Shown piece by piece: positions 24,001 through 39,000 of a stretch of 64,000 nt of DNA. The stretch comes from an uncultured Methanotrichaceae archaeon. GTDB taxonomy: Archaea > Halobacteriota > Methanosarcinia > Methanotrichales > Methanotrichaceae. Made by a program: the position numbers. Positions within the stretch are counted from its first letter, which is position 1. Each line of letters begins with the position of its first letter. The stretch covers positions 1 to 64,000 of the forward strand of contig CAZHNU010000008.1 of NCBI GenBank assembly GCA_964534145.1, read 5' to 3'.

Positions 24001-27000
24001 TACAGCATCTCTAGGCTCCGTGAGTTTCCGAAGGTCATAGGCGGGACAGACGAGGAAAGCGGTTTCAAGGCCTATGAGGTTTACAAAAAGTTCATAGCCA
24101 ACCTTCACCTGGTCTCGTCGGCAAAGGTGGCAGAGATGATCAAGGTCATGGAGGGCTGCTACAGGGATGTGAACATCTGCCTCGCCAACGAGCTTTTCAA
24201 GATATCTGAAGCCTTGGGCCTGGACTTCTTTGAGGCAAGGGAAAACGCCAATCACCAGTTTTGCCACATTCATCTGCCATCCACCGGCGTTGGAGGCCAC
24301 TGCATCCCCGTTTATCCATGGTTTTTGATAAAGGAGATGGAGAAGAGGGGGAAGTTTTGCCATGTGCGGCTGCTCCGAACCTCAAGGGAGATCAACGACG
24401 AGATGATAGAATACTGGGCTAAAAGAATCGTTGCAGAGTGCATGAAGATCGACAAGCCTCTGGCCGATGTGAGAATTTGCATTCGCGGAATAACCTTCAG
24501 GGCGGGCGTGAAGGAGTTCTATCACAGCAGGAATATGGCCCTGGCAAAGCTCTTGAAGGAAAAAGGCCTGGATACATACGTCTTCGACGATCTGCTGAGC
24601 GAGAAGGAGGTAGAAGGCAAGGGATTTTCGTACATCAGGCCTGAGGAGGCTGACCTGGTCTTCGACTGCTTCCGCCTTTCCTTTGATATTAATGATGAAG
24701 GAAATGGAGAGGCCGCATAAATGAAGATAGCATCGGTTGTCGGGGCCAGGCCCAATTTCGTGAAGCTGTCTCCCGTTTCCCGGGAGCTTCGAAGGAGGTT
24801 CGACGAGGTCATCATCCATACCGGCCAGCATTACAACTACGAGATGGACAAAATTTTCTTCGAAGATATGGGCATCCCTGAGCCAGGATATCACCTGGGC
24901 GTGGGCTCGGGGAACCACGGCTACCAGACTGGAGAGATGCTGAAGAGGATCGAGGAGATTTTGCTGGATGAGAGGCCCGATGCGGTCCTGGTCTTCGGCG
25001 ACACTAACACCACTCTGGCCGGGGCCCTTGCGGCTGCAAAGCTGCATATCCCTGTGGCTCACGTCGAGGCTGGTCTTCGGTCATTCAACCGCCGCATGCC
25101 CGAGGAGATCAACCGCGTTTTGGTTGACCACTGCTCAGACCTGCTTTTATGCCCTACAAGGACTGCCGTTTCGAATCTGAAAAAGGAGGGCATAGTCAGC
25201 GGTGTCCACCTCACCGGCGACGTCATGGTCGATGCCCAAAGGGACTGCACTCTCATTGCCGAGAAGAGGTCGCACATCCTGGAAGAGCTGGGACTTAAGC
25301 CCAGGGATTACCATCTTGCCACAATTCACAGGGCCGAGAACACAGACGATCCGGGGAGACTAAAAAATATAGCTGAAGCCCTGGAGGAGATCGGAGACGT
25401 CGTTTTCCCCTGCCACCCGAGGGCTGAGAAGTGCCTGAAGCAGCTGGGACTCTGGGAAAGCCTGATCGCCCGTGCCAGGGTGATCAGGCCCGTGGGCTAC
25501 CTGGACATGATAATGCTTGAGAAAAGCGCCCGGAAAATACTGACCGACTCGGGCGGGGTGCAGAAGGAGGCTTATCTTCTGGGCGTGCCATGCATCACCC
25601 TCCGTGATGAGACCGAGTGGGTGGAGACTGTGGAGGACGGCTGGAACGTGCTGGCAGGAGCCGACAAGGAGAAGATCGTCGGCCTGACAGGAAGCTTCGA
25701 GCCCAAGTCCGAACAGAGAGACGTATTCGGTACGGGTGACGCCAGCATAAGGACTGCAGAGTGCATCGCCGAGCTGGTTATGAAGTCAGGAGAAGGCAAG
25801 CCAGGAGTGAGCAAATGAAGATACTTCTGCTCGCCAACCAACCTGAGAGAACCACGAGGCTCCGGATGTTCGAGGGCACTCTGAAGGAGCTGGGCTATGA
25901 GGTCGTGGTCCCAAGGTTTGATACGCGCAACTGGATCAGGATTGCAGGTCTCGCCAGAAAGGTGGCTCTTGCAGAGCAGCCCGACGTGGTTCACATCTTC
26001 AACGTTCCCGATATCATTTACCATAGGTTCCCTGATCTGAGAGGCAGGGGCTTCAAGAAGCTCATCTACGACTACCGCTCCCCCTGGGGCCTGGAGCTTC
26101 AGCAGACATTCGGCGCTCCCGGAAAGGCTTTCGGCGAGCGCTTCGAAAGAGAGCTGGCAAAAGCAGCGGACGTCATCACAACGGTCAACAGGCCGCTTGG
26201 GGAGAAGGCGAGGTCTTTCGCACCGAACAAAGAGCCCCATGTCATAGCGAACTACCCATCAAGATCATTTTCGAAGGTCAAGGAGAAGGATTCGGATGGC
26301 CTTGAGGCAGCCGGTACGGGAGAAAAAGATCACGAGGCCATGAGCAAAGCACCGATCATTTTCATAGGCCGCGTCTGCACCCAGGAAGGGATACAAACGC
26401 TTCTGGCGGTGGCAAGAGCAATCCCTGAGCAGGAGTTCTGGATCGTAGGCGGAGGCCCCTTTGCCTGGTGGTTCCTGAGGAACATGCCGCCAAACGTGAA
26501 GAACCTTGGGTGGCAGCCCCACGAGAAGGTGGCAGGGCTCATCAGGAAGGCCAAGATCTGCCTCATCCCCAGGGAGGAGAGCGTGATCACGCCCTATTCG
26601 ACGGACAAGAGCGTCTGGAAGCTGAACGAGTACCTGAACATGGGGAAGCTGGTGGTGGCCTCCGGCATCAGCCGGGAGGAGCCAAGGAAGAACCTCATAA
26701 TCGTGGAGAGCGCCGGGCTGAAGGAGGAGATAATCAGGCATCTCGACTATCGCCCGCAGAAAATGGGGGAAGAGGATTTCAAGTACTGGGATTCCAATAC
26801 GGAGGCTATAAGGGAGGTTTACGAGAGTCTCTAAGTTGGCAGGCTAAAGCAGATACGGTGCCGGCTCCCGCCCGCCCCATTCATACATCAGACGAGGAAC
26901 ATAGCCCTTACAATCCCGCGGCAGTGTGCATAGACCCCAACCTACCTCATGGACGATCCCAAGGGCCAAAGGCCAAGGGAGATAGGGCTAGGAGGGGACT

Positions 27001-36000: not shown

Positions 36001-39000
36001 TGCAGGTCCAAGCCCGCCGCCGACCCGACGACCCTTTCGTTCGACTGTCACGGCCACGGCTAGGATATTCTCCAGCGCAATCAGCCCGTCGGGCACATGG
36101 ACGTTATCCCCCTTGATAAGGAATGAGCCGTTCCTCCTCTGGACTATGCGGTGGACGGCGAGCTTGTCGGCATGGGGCTGCCTGAAGGCCACAACATCGC
36201 CAACTCTTAAAGGCCCATGCATATTCAATGGCACCAGAGTGACAATATCTCTATCCCTGATGAAAGGGTGCATGCTGAGTCCCCGGGCACGGAAGCGGAA
36301 AGGCACGCCCTTTTCGATTACGGAGCGCATCAGCTCTTTAAGCGGCGGCGCCCTCCGGCTCCGGGGCTCTTCAAAGTGGACGTAAGAGTTCATCCTGAAG
36401 CCGGAACCAGCATCTTTCTCTTTAAAAGCTCACTTGCCAGGCCGACCACATCCCGCTCAACTTCGCCAGGCTTTGCCTCATACTCGGCCTTCAGTGCCTC
36501 AGCCACCTCTTGAAGGCTTCGGCCGTCAAGCCTCTCCCAGATGGCTCTTCCTGTCTCGTTCAGCGTGTAGATCTCGTCCTCCATATCTCCGATGCCTGCG
36601 GTCAGGGGAACGATGATCAGTTCGCCCTCGATGTCCCTTGCCACGACATCCTCTGAGGGTACATATTTAGAACCGATTTCTGCTTCAATCTCCATAATCT
36701 CACCCTATACTAGTTGCGATTTCTATGTCTGTTCCCTTAAAAGCTTTTCGCTAACTTATTTATAACTATTTGACCAATTGCTAATTAAGGAAGGCTTTAG
36801 ACTGCAGTAAACAACAACTTGCATAAATTAATTAACAAAATGGCTCAAGTGGCGCTAGACCCTGCCCGATATTTTTACACCAGATTGGAAAATAGCCAAA
36901 ATAAATCCGAGGCTAAGTCCGTTTTCACTGATCCATATCACAGACAATTCGATGAAGCAAGGAATAACAAAGATATGGCTAGAAAAGTAGTTTACCCATA
37001 TCAAGTATCTCAGTCCTGGACCAGGTATAGTTGCTTCTGAATAGATTTAAGATAGTATTATCCGCATTATTTCGATTGATCCGCAATATGAACTTTAAAT
37101 TCGCAATTTCTAAATAATATAAGACTAATTAATATGTGCTCGATAATGCAGGCATTCGAGGAGGAGATGGCAAATGGAAAACCAGTGGAAAAAGCCAGAG
37201 CTTGTTATAGTCACCAGAGGGAATGCTGAGGAGAACGTTCTGAGCGGCTGCAAACTCATGGGAAATTCGGGTTCAAGCAACTTAAATAACGGTTGCTTGG
37301 TGGCTGGAGACAGACCCTGTGTAGCTTGCATTGTGAATTGCTGCAGTTGAAAATCGCTTCCCTAGCGCTTATTAATCACTTGATCGCCGAGGCAATTTGC
37401 TTCCAACTTATTTGCAGGACGCGCCAGAAGATCCAGCCTTCATTTCTTGAAGGCGCTCTTTATCAGGCAGTTAGTCATTCCATGCGGGCACGGCATAGAT
37501 TCAACTGCACCCACCCGACGGAAGAGGCCCAAGTCGTAGTCCGACAGCAGCACCGGCCCCCCGCCCCTTTCACGCATCAGACGAGGAACACAGTCCTAAA
37601 TAGCTCCGCTGCAGGGTCCTTAGACCCCGACCTGCCTTACGGGCGATCCCTAGGGCAAAAGGCCAAGAGAGATGGCTAAGAGTTAGCGTAAGAACTGCAG
37701 CACCTGCAGATTCCCTGACCGTAATACACGAAGCAGTAGCCGTTAAATGCAGTCTGCGAGTTGCCAGAATCGGAACTCTTACACGCTTCAAGCACTCTTT
37801 CCTCATCCGATCCTCTTACAAGAACTGCCAGTTCAGGTCTCGTCCAATTTTTCTTCATATCCTTACCGCTTTATTAGCTTTTGGCGGGTAAATCTAGTCC
37901 TCTCTATAATTACTTTTCGCTGATCTTTCCTGTCTTCGAGATCTTTAGCCCTCTCTTAGATCCTCCAAATGAGCTATCGAACAATTGATATTACATCTAT
38001 TTTCTCGTCAGATTTATCTTTTAAAAGAAGTTATCTTAATACCATGAAGCTTATAGCAATAATGGCGTTAATGGCCATGCTATTATCCATTGGTCCTCAA
38101 TCCTGCAGCGACATAACCGACCAGGGAAATCTGACCATAGGAGCCCTTCTTCCATTAAGCGGCGACTATGCCAGCATTGGAAAATCGGCTCAGATTGCCC
38201 TCGAACTGGCAGAGGCCGATATCAATGAGGCCCTTTCAGATATGGGCAGATCTGCAAGAATACAGATGCTCATAAAGGATACGAAGACCGACCCGGAAGT
38301 GACCTTCGAAGAGCTGAAGGACTTTATGGACCAGGGATTGAAGATTATCATAGGCCCAGAGGACAGCGCCTCGCTTTCAAGAGTAAGAGAGTACGCCAAT
38401 GAAAGCGGCATAATTCTGATCAGCAGCTCCAGCACTGCCCCGAGCCTGGCAGTTGCCAACGATACGACATTCAGATTTGCCTCTGATGATACGCACCTGG
38501 CAAATGTGATGGCAGCACTTATGCAAAAAGACGGAATCAAAGCGGTATTGCCCCTCGCCAGGGAGGACATCTGGGGAAACGATCTCATCAACGCCACGGC
38601 GAAGAGCCTTGATTCCAAAGGCGGCGTAATGCTGAGTCCCGTTAAATACAACCCCAACACAAAGGACTTTGCTCGAACTCTGGCTGACCTGAGGACCGCC
38701 CTGGCAAAAGCCATAAACCAATACGGCAACGGCTCAGTCGCCGTCGATCTGATTGCATTCAATGAGGGCACTAGCATTCTATCCCAGGCATCCGGGGACC
38801 CTGTCCTCTCATCTGTGAGATGGTACGGCAGCGATCCGTCAGCAGTCTCGTTTCATGAGAACGAAAAGGCTGCCAGGTTCGCCTGGAAAGTCCACTTTGT
38901 GTACCCAACATTCGGTCAGGAGAATTCTACCGTCTACAGGAGGATATGCGAAGAGGTCAGGCAGAGGTACGGGATTGACGCTGTCACATATGCGATAAAC

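What a model noticed while it worked through the whole genome (the two positions that open the first line are those of the whole stretch)
26988..37858. Undescribed radical-SAM RiPP system with 11 hypervariable Cys-rich precursors
Two clusters (C8:30913-36695, C15:16727-23617) encode 2-3 SPASM radical-SAM enzymes, one with an extra C-terminal P-loop domain, PqqD/RRE proteins and an S24/S26 peptidase. Around them lie 11 short precursor ORFs (9 intact, 2 broken; 6 on C8, 4 on C15, 1 at C33:33859) with a shared leader W-x2-P-x-L-x2-L-x-R...E-x-[VI]L-x2-CK and unrelated Cys-rich cores; most are uncalled. On C8 the precursors expanded as tandem units of [rSAM 3' end + new precursor] separated by other cassettes.
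Evidence so far: ORFs and motif scan. Three precursors tested match no NCBIfam model and two no Pfam model; the enzymes are far below every equivalog cut-off, including ScmE/F. Of 30 homologous loci (Omnitrophota, Chlorobiaceae, Geobacteraceae, Synergistaceae, Smithella, Methanoregula and others, call 22), 20 carry a same-leader precursor, 23 PqqD, 20 the peptidase; 0 hits in 186 control loci of 1.14 Mb. Three extra copies of the rSAM 3' end at C8:29414-29674, 27785-28020, 27237-27440. Paper searches 24, 25, 27, 28 found no description.
(Added by a program. Inside this text positions count along the whole contig: contig position 1 is position 1 of the stretch shown here. "Call 12" and the like, gene names such as g00115 and contig names such as C1 are that model's own, and its searches are not shown. 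The text may have been shortened before it was handed on; [...] marks where a part breaks off. The agent that wrote the report below was given it as the finding of a first reader that could run no searches.)

Follow-up and report, generated by a model that had tools for sequence, protein, structure and literature searches.

The report
Radical-SAM/kinase peptide library in a methanogen
A methane-producing archaeon carries a gene cluster and eleven small cysteine-rich peptide genes that share one fixed frame but have very different fillings, and that are likely cross-linked by three related radical enzymes and likely phosphorylated at the tail; I found no description of this large peptide family in the papers searched, and its product has not been shown.

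Summary
There are exactly 11 same-leader precursor genes (8 intact, 2 broken, 1 without a start codon), three paralogous rSAM/SPASM enzymes, a PqqD/RRE and an S26-type peptidase, in a Methanotrichaceae genome.

Corrections: the cores are not unrelated. They share a frame C-K-x~15-C-x~6-C-x2-3-C-x5-S/T-stop (164 of 172 cores end in Ser/Thr). The 'P-loop domain' is an HprK-type kinase domain, and the C8 peptidase is fused to a GNAT.

The scaffold matches LPP and paeninodin-type clusters (PMC13381572), with rSAMs added. It is not SynChlorMet: a true Scm cassette with a YxxP-type candidate precursor lies on C59.

New here: (1) each C8 duplication unit carries its own BRE/TATA-like motif, and cores are at shuffle-level DNA identity while flanks stay 65-88% alike; (2) loss of the second rSAM tends to go with loss of the third cysteine, suggesting one enzyme per cysteine.

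Thioether cross-linking and C-terminal phosphorylation are inferred, not shown. The scan already found this family on other DNA. Verdict: new variant of a known kind; interest 0.6.

The parts
37676..37858 (-). intact precursor, 60 aa; leader WTRPEL...VLEA, core CK...C-x5-S
37905..37920 (-). BRE/TATA-like motif about 46 nt upstream of the precursor ATG; no rSAM relic precedes it
37537..37684 (-). conserved ~150-nt 3' element starting at the last Ser codon and stop; function unknown
37174..37350 (+). intact precursor, 58 aa, convergent orientation, more divergent leader, six Cys
36852..36951 (-). weak, degenerate copy of the 3' element (E 1.7e-6)
36390..36695 (-). stand-alone PqqD/RRE, 101 aa
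   Evidence: PF05402 61 bits; nearest solved relatives are PqqD and lasso B1 proteins
35413..36393 (-). S24/S26 (archaeal SPase-I-like) peptidase with Ser40/His81/Asp96, fused to a C-terminal GNAT
34193..35377 (-). rSAM/SPASM paralogue rS1; two extra conserved Cys (265, 278) before the SPASM domain
32115..34151 (-). rSAM/SPASM paralogue rS2 fused to an HprK/PEPCK-fold kinase domain (about 32115-33041; H, Walker-A K, DD conserved)
30913..32115 (-). rSAM/SPASM paralogue rS3, 400 aa; its last codons contain the BRE/TATA-like motif (30914-30929) of the next precursor
30687..30866 (-). intact precursor, 59 aa
30537..30695 (-). conserved 3' element
29892..30487 (+). inserted RelB/Phd-like and PemK/MazF toxin-antitoxin pair between units
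29403..29731 (-). rS3 3' relic 1 (79% aa) ending in a BRE/TATA-like motif
29173..29356 (-). broken precursor: TTG start, frameshift in the core
29031..29181 (-). conserved 3' element
28222..28995 (+). inserted acylphosphatase-domain protein with 21-aa repeats; one of 6 such genes in the genome
27764..28020 (-). rS3 3' relic 2 (frameshifts and a stop) ending in a BRE/TATA-like motif
27544..27717 (-). broken precursor: TAG in the leader; no PylRS found in the genome; no 3' element
27221..27440 (-). rS3 3' relic 3 ending in a BRE/TATA-like motif
26988..27173 (-). intact precursor, 61 aa
26851..26996 (-). conserved 3' element

Best explanation
This is a RiPP gene cluster in which the PqqD protein likely binds the WxxPxL leader, three paralogous radical-SAM enzymes likely each cross-link particular cysteines as thioethers, the HprK-type domain likely phosphorylates the terminal Ser/Thr, and the signal-peptidase-like enzyme likely cuts off the leader before the first Cys. 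The GNAT would acetylate the new N-terminus or the conserved Lys, and export would use an ABC transporter in trans (C59). The cell builds a peptide library by duplicating a self-contained unit (rS3 tail with promoter-like motif, leader, core, 3' element); the filling between the fixed cysteines then diverges far faster than the flanks. Shown: genes, motifs, frame, co-occurrence and unit anatomy. Inferred: every chemical step and the biological role (most likely exported antagonistic or signalling peptides).
For: Co-occurrence in 59 family loci: kinase 51, PqqD 50, precursor 48, rS1 48, peptidase 44, ABC 25, NTP_transf_5 20, GNAT 16; 0 of 10 distant rSAM loci have a precursor. Of 79 precursors found in other genomes by a leader-only HMM, 75 end in S/T, against 11% of 1,594 long ORFs; 133 of 172 cores have four Cys, and the last Cys lies 6 residues before the end in 116 of 133. 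Kinase H149, K170 and D186 are conserved in 48 of 48 sequences and D187 in 47 of 48; the model (pLDDT 92) matches PEPCK and HPr kinase folds. Lasso kinases with a His-Lys-Asp-Asp motif phosphorylate a C-terminal Ser, and PsmN-type NTases act afterwards (PMC9266682, PMC6993621). An SpI-like Ser/His/Asp peptidase removes the leader with RRE help in LPP (PMC13381572); here His and Asp are in 48 of 48 and Ser in 42 of 48. Leaders weakly hit two lasso-precursor models (20 and 17 of 83 at E<=1). No residue other than Lys+1, Gly/Pro before Cys2 and the terminal S/T is conserved around the cysteines, which fits acceptor-tolerant thioether chemistry (own knowledge). With rS2 present, 34 of 36 loci have a precursor with three distal Cys; without it, 6 of 11. 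Unit anatomy.
Against: No product, expression or activity is shown. No characterised rSAM is close: best NCBIfam scores are 86-116 bits against cut-offs of 500, and the top hits are AhbD, NirJ2, MftC and ACGX models rather than thioether enzymes. Five Smithella-type loci lack the kinase, and 4 of those 5 genomes have no full-length orthologue, yet their precursors end in Ser; so the kinase alone does not explain the terminal residue. On C15 the kinase motif is intact but 3 of 4 precursors lack a terminal S/T. The LPP kinase phosphorylates core Ser3, not the terminus. The rS2-Cys3 link has a true exception (L022), two rS2-positive loci with only three-Cys precursors, five ambiguous loci, and rests on about 6 lineages. 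The C8 cluster has no adjacent exporter, and no NTase orthologue was found in the genome with one query.
Confidence: 0.55

Rival explanations
1. The rSAMs convert each cysteine in place (for example to a thio-oxazole or a similar metal-binding group) without a cross-link partner, making a metal-binding peptide.
For: No conserved acceptor residue near any cysteine; hosts are metal-dependent anaerobes; SbtM-type chemistry is recalled from memory.
Against: Only rS1 lists SbtM, at 39 bits against a cut-off of 350. Extreme core diversity (3,452 clusters at 50% identity) fits antagonism or signalling better than chelation (inference).
Confidence: 0.18
2. The terminal Ser/Thr is itself an rSAM substrate: the last Cys is linked to it, or it is oxidatively decarboxylated, closing a 7-residue C-terminal ring; phosphorylation is accessory or an activation step.
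For: Fixed C-x5-S/T spacing in 116 of 133 cores and 130 of 139 further ones; terminal Ser kept in kinase-less loci; the decarboxylating AhbD/MftC models rank at or near the top.
Against: Those scores are generic and far below cut-off; some cores have tails of other lengths. This rival is compatible with thioethers at the other cysteines.
Confidence: 0.17
3. The four cysteines form disulfides or bind a metal unmodified, and the rSAMs act elsewhere (the conserved Lys, the Gly-Pro, backbone epimerisation).
For: Lys follows Cys1 in 96% of four-Cys cores; Gly/Pro lie 8 and 7 residues before Cys2 in about half.
Against: 25 of 172 cores have three Cys, an odd number, and Cys number tends to follow rSAM number.
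Confidence: 0.08
4. The small ORFs are decaying by-products of tandem duplication, and core divergence is neutral.
For: Two C8 copies are broken and one C15 copy lacks a start codon.
Against: Non-functional rSAM relics in the same units stay 73-88% identical while cores are at shuffle level, yet all five intact or stop-broken C8 cores keep the frame and C-x5-S end.
Confidence: 0.02

Closest known systems
LPP (linear polyphosphorylated peptides), lppA-K-B-S-D-N, Popov et al. 2026, PMC13381572
   Same: Discrete RRE, SpI-like Ser/His/Asp leader peptidase, HprK-like kinase, NTP transferase and MsbA-like exporter; [Y/W]xxPx-hydrophobic leader; variable cores; location inside glycan-biosynthesis loci (here 19.5-26.8 kb and 39-51 kb).
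   Different: LPP main text has no radical SAM (0 hits); its leader is YxxPxVLxHQxIxFETxxS and Ser3 is phosphorylated. Here there are three rSAM/SPASM enzymes, the kinase is fused to one, the leader is WxxP, the core has a four-Cys frame and a terminal Ser/Thr, and hosts are anaerobic bacteria and methanogens.
SynChlorMet cassette (TIGR04248-TIGR04251)
   Same: Several rSAM/SPASM enzymes, PqqD, an HprK-like domain and (on C59) an S26 peptidase; ScmC is the best NCBIfam hit of the kinase domain.
   Different: All four models are missed by wide margins. The genome's real Scm cassette on C59 passes all four cut-offs and has a YxxP-type candidate precursor without the frame. The three window rSAMs form a separate clade with SH-aLRT 99.
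Phosphorylated paeninodin/pseudomycoidin lasso peptides (PadeK, PsmK, PsmN)
   Same: WxxP leader, discrete RRE, HprK kinase with H-K-D-D, conserved C-terminal Ser, NTase and ABC partner.
   Different: No macrolactam cyclase or B2 peptidase among the conserved neighbours; the core starts with Cys and is Cys-rich.
Sactipeptides and ranthipeptides (AlbA, SkfB, CteB, PapB, archaeal CrpC; PMC10114670, PMC13692751)
   Same: SPASM rSAM enzymes with Cys-rich substrates.
   Different: Three paralogues with a stand-alone RRE, a CxxCx5CxxC cluster motif and no conserved Asp/Glu/Asn acceptor. CrpA substrates are proteins of 100 aa or more, of a different family.

Membership tests
SynChlorMet cassette | rSAMs above the ScmE/ScmF cut-offs (400 bits) | tested here: not met
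   58-87 bits for the three window enzymes; C59 control 585 and 581
SynChlorMet cassette | ScmC above 125 bits and ScmD above 100 bits | tested here: not met
   35 and 24 bits; C59 control 296 and 112
LPP | SpI-like peptidase with Ser/His/Asp and a discrete RRE | tested here: met
   matched by motif and family hit, not aligned to LppS itself
LPP | HprK-like kinase | tested here: met
LPP | NTP transferase and MsbA-like exporter in the cluster | tested here: inconclusive
   absent from C8 and C15; present in 20 and 25 of 59 family loci; exporter orthologue on C59
LPP | leader YxxPxVLxHQxIxFETxxS with core Ser3; no cyclising enzyme | tested here: not met
   leader is WxxPEL...VLxxCK; three rSAMs present
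Paeninodin-type lasso peptide | macrolactam cyclase C and B2 peptidase | tested here: not met
   not among the conserved neighbours of 59 loci; the Asn-synthase gene at 43725 has a glutaminase domain and lies among glycan genes
Paeninodin-type lasso peptide | WxxP leader and conserved C-terminal Ser | tested here: met
Sacti-/ranthipeptide | SPASM rSAM with a Cys-rich precursor | tested here: met
Sacti-/ranthipeptide | Cys-S to carbon thioether bond in the product | not testable with these tools
   needs mass spectrometry or NMR
Curated precursor families (NCBIfam, Pfam) | match to a curated precursor model | tested here: not met
   83 members scanned: best NCBIfam E 0.0017 (lasso leader); no Pfam family hit by more than one member

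The most novel reading that the evidence does not exclude
A new RiPP class with an assembly line of three paralogous radical-SAM enzymes, each dedicated to particular cysteines of a fixed frame and closing a C-terminal ring on a phospho-Ser/Thr. Methanogens use it as a combinatorial peptide library: promoter-bearing units are duplicated and the core is exchanged or rapidly diversified between a conserved leader and a conserved 3' element.
Probability: 0.25. Interest if true: 0.85.

Novelty: new variant of a known kind. Interest (0 to 1): 0.6.

Why it matters
The family is large (3,452 precursor clusters at 50% identity; enzyme relatives in methanogens and many anaerobic bacterial phyla), yet it has no curated model and no description in the papers searched. 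Few archaeal RiPPs are characterised (own knowledge). A three-enzyme system that tolerates almost any sequence between four fixed cysteines would be a useful macrocyclisation tool. This genome supplies eight intact natural substrates and a second RRE system (SynChlorMet, YxxP leader) in the same cell, so both the one-enzyme-per-cysteine idea and W/Y leader discrimination can be tested directly.

Tried and rejected
Pyrrolysine read-through of the TAG in the 27717 precursor: no PylS match over cut-off. Assembly artefact: both lesions and the units are reproduced in contigs of 3 studies, though no single contig spans the whole stretch. Ongoing diversification within the population: among 40 listed differences (86 more not shown) only one, silent by my reading, lies in a precursor; contigs drop rare variants, so this is weak. 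3' element as a structured RNA: folding z-scores -0.04 to +1.56 and no Rfam match at E<=1; as a gene relic: no informative blastx hit in the part of the output shown. Sigma-70 promoters and intrinsic terminators: not above shuffles. Expression: no RNA holder listed. Single-sequence fold of the kinase domain failed (pLDDT 36); the alignment-based one worked. PDB sequence searches gave only distant rSAMs. ESM Atlas look-alikes of one precursor were unnamed clusters. The rS3 tree is the quick tree; L068 and other frameshifted rows were not in it. Ten paper searches returned no description of this family; one search was swamped by unrelated acronyms.
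Full report
Setting. The window is C8:1-64000 of a 3.35-Mb, 97%-complete genome. The nearest enzyme relatives are from Methanotrichaceae. The cluster lies inside a nucleotide-sugar and surface-glycan locus.

Observation. A precursor profile finds exactly 11 genes. A leader-only HMM separates them cleanly from background: 11 hits of 32-61 bits in the real genome against one hit of 15.5 bits in the reversed genome. 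Eight are intact. C8:27717 has a TAG in the leader, C8:29356 has a frameshift in the core, and C15:18958 has GTA at the aligned start. Both lesions recur in contigs from three studies, and no PylRS was found. The C8 operon is PqqD, S26 peptidase fused to a GNAT, rS1, rS2 fused to a kinase domain, and rS3. C15 holds the same set with two PqqDs and no GNAT. The three rSAMs are 31-40% identical paralogues with intact CxxxCxxC and seven-Cys SPASM motifs. In a quick tree of 30 proteins they form one clade apart from ScmE/ScmF.

The family. Of 70 loci fetched with rS3 I used 59 as family loci and set aside one contig-edge rS2 locus and 10 distant rSAM loci. A precursor was found in 48 of 59 and in 0 of the 10 distant loci. 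Also present were the kinase (51), PqqD (50), rS1 (48), peptidase (44), ABC exporter (25), NTP_transf_5 (20) and GNAT (16). In the 28 loci of 18 kb or more, 26 have a precursor. The precursor profile hits 3,452 clusters at 50% identity. Within the host family the system is patchy: 7 of 105 genomes have a precursor. G035 has an orphan precursor with no rS2 or rS3 match.

The cores have a fixed frame. Among 172 unique cores, 133 have four Cys and 164 end in Ser or Thr. Spacings are mostly 15-18, 6-8 and 3-4 residues, and the last Cys lies six residues before the end in 116 of 133. For the 79 precursors found in other genomes by the leader alone, 75 end in S/T, against 11% of long ORFs, so this is not a search artefact. 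A further 139 profile hits agree, although the profile favours them. Six of the seven C8 and C33 precursors end in C-x5-S in frame; the frameshifted copy has such an end in another frame. Only 1 of 4 on C15 does.

The P-loop domain is an HprK-type kinase domain. It hits ScmC, HprK-related kinase B and HPr kinase models weakly. Its model (pLDDT 92) matches PEPCK and HPr kinase folds, and His, Lys, Asp, Asp are conserved. Lasso kinases with that motif phosphorylate the C-terminal Ser (PMC9266682 and PMC6993621, passages read); I did not align PadeK itself. The full scaffold of RRE, SpI-like peptidase, HprK kinase, NTP transferase and exporter defines LPP (PMC13381572; abstract, sections 6, 7, 9, 11, term search of main text and of 6 supplement files). 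Its main text never mentions radical SAM; one supplement lists Radical_SAM once as a column name. I was led to this paper by earlier scan notes. Against a kinase-only reading: five Smithella-type loci lack the kinase, 4 of those 5 genomes have no full-length orthologue, and their precursors still end in Ser; LppK acts on Ser3.

Division of labour. Of loci with precursors and enough upstream sequence (contig-edge loci excluded), 34 of 36 with rS2 have a precursor with three distal Cys, against 6 of 11 without rS2. Five of those six are near-identical Smithella-type loci. Their core aligns by eye with the three-Cys core of their sister locus L055 plus two extra Cys, so they are ambiguous. L022 is a true exception. 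Loss of rS2 needs 5 changes on the quick tree, of which starred branches force only 2; L068 was not in the tree. This is suggestive, not established.

How the C8 array grew. A motif GCGAAA-R-K-Y-AATTATA occurs five times in the genome, each time about 46 nt upstream of a minus-strand C8 precursor. A looser BRE/TATA pattern is about 36 times denser upstream of genes than inside them (24 in 204 kb against 2 in 617 kb). One copy lies in the last codons of rS3, so copying the rS3 tail copies a likely promoter. Between units, DNA identity is 73-88% for the rS3 tail, 69-84% for the promoter region, 74-88% for the leader and 65-82% for the 3' element, but 42-64% for the core, where shuffles give 46-53%. 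Cores therefore diverged far more than adjacent non-functional DNA while keeping the frame, which points to diversifying selection or core replacement; these cannot be told apart here. The 3' element is 74-86% conserved in L019 and also found in L020, but shows no stable fold or Rfam match. No extra, separate rS3 tail copy was seen in the 61 other loci tested; the one listed hit is a piece of the split rS3 gene of L022. Multiple precursors are common, however (8 matches in G109). Variable cores under a constant leader are known in other RiPP classes (own knowledge).

Not SynChlorMet. C59 encodes ScmC, ScmD, ScmE and ScmF above their cut-offs, an S26 peptidase, a candidate precursor with a YxxP leader and an ABC exporter 58% identical to the family's exporter. 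The window's leaders all use WxxP. This mirrors the W/Y discrimination shown for lasso and LPP RREs; that it works the same way here is an inference.

Mechanism and odds. RiPP pathway: about 0.9. Terminal Ser/Thr phosphorylation: about 0.65. Cys thioethers by the rSAMs: about 0.6. rS2 has only the seven SPASM cysteines, whereas rS1 and rS3 have extra conserved ones, so their chemistry may differ. Rivals are in-place Cys oxidation, a C-terminal ring or decarboxylation, and unmodified disulfides. RRE-leader binding could not be modelled.

Novelty. No curated precursor model fits. Ten paper searches found no description; PMC7470986 and PMC10114670 (passages) and PMC13692751 (abstract and section 8) do not describe it in what I read. 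PMC7470986 does note about 300 lasso-type RREs beside rSAMs, and its supplements, subscription-journal atlases and preprint supplements were not seen. The scan had already reported this family in other genomes. Verdict: a real, large, uncharacterised rSAM-bearing variant of the LPP/paeninodin scaffold, with an unusually well-documented precursor radiation; interest 0.6.

Noticed in passing
G000:C59:10175-16865 (L100:6176-12866): A complete SynChlorMet cassette (all four models over cut-off) with an S26 peptidase, a divergent ABC exporter and a 57-aa candidate precursor (14346-14519; YERPKL leader, two Cys). An AAC(3)-like gene, judged by eye, follows the exporter.
   Followed up: partly
L048, L058-L061, L035: The peptidase has Cys instead of the catalytic Ser (GTCMYP, 6 of 48 sequences), suggesting a Ser-to-Cys nucleophile switch; five of these loci also lack rS2 and the kinase.
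   Followed up: partly
L101:5646-5954 (G035) and L102:4227-4869 (G109): Orphan precursors away from any cluster. G035 (one contig) has a precursor but no match to rS2 or rS3; G109 has a convergent pair like window 37174/37858.
   Followed up: partly
L019:11165-11298: The 3' element follows rS3 directly with no precursor in between, as if the promoter, leader and core had been deleted.
   Followed up: partly
window 28222-28995 and L103:1489-2037: An acylphosphatase-domain protein with 21-aa repeats sits beside a precursor in two genomes; six such genes occur in G000.
   Followed up: partly
G000:C33:34093-35043 (L002:5094-6044): Two tandem 95-aa paralogues, by eye winged-helix regulators, lie directly upstream of the orphan C33 precursor.
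   Followed up: no
window 11277-18621: RuBisCO large subunit, two FBPases, class II aldolase and aldehyde ferredoxin oxidoreductase are clustered.
   Followed up: no
L032-L034, L039, L070, L074; L035, L049, L051, L066, L067, L072: Sulfotransferase (6 of 59 loci) and methyltransferase (6 of 59) genes are optional tailoring partners.
   Followed up: no
protein P0220: A 180-aa protein holding two precursor units in one reading frame.
   Followed up: no
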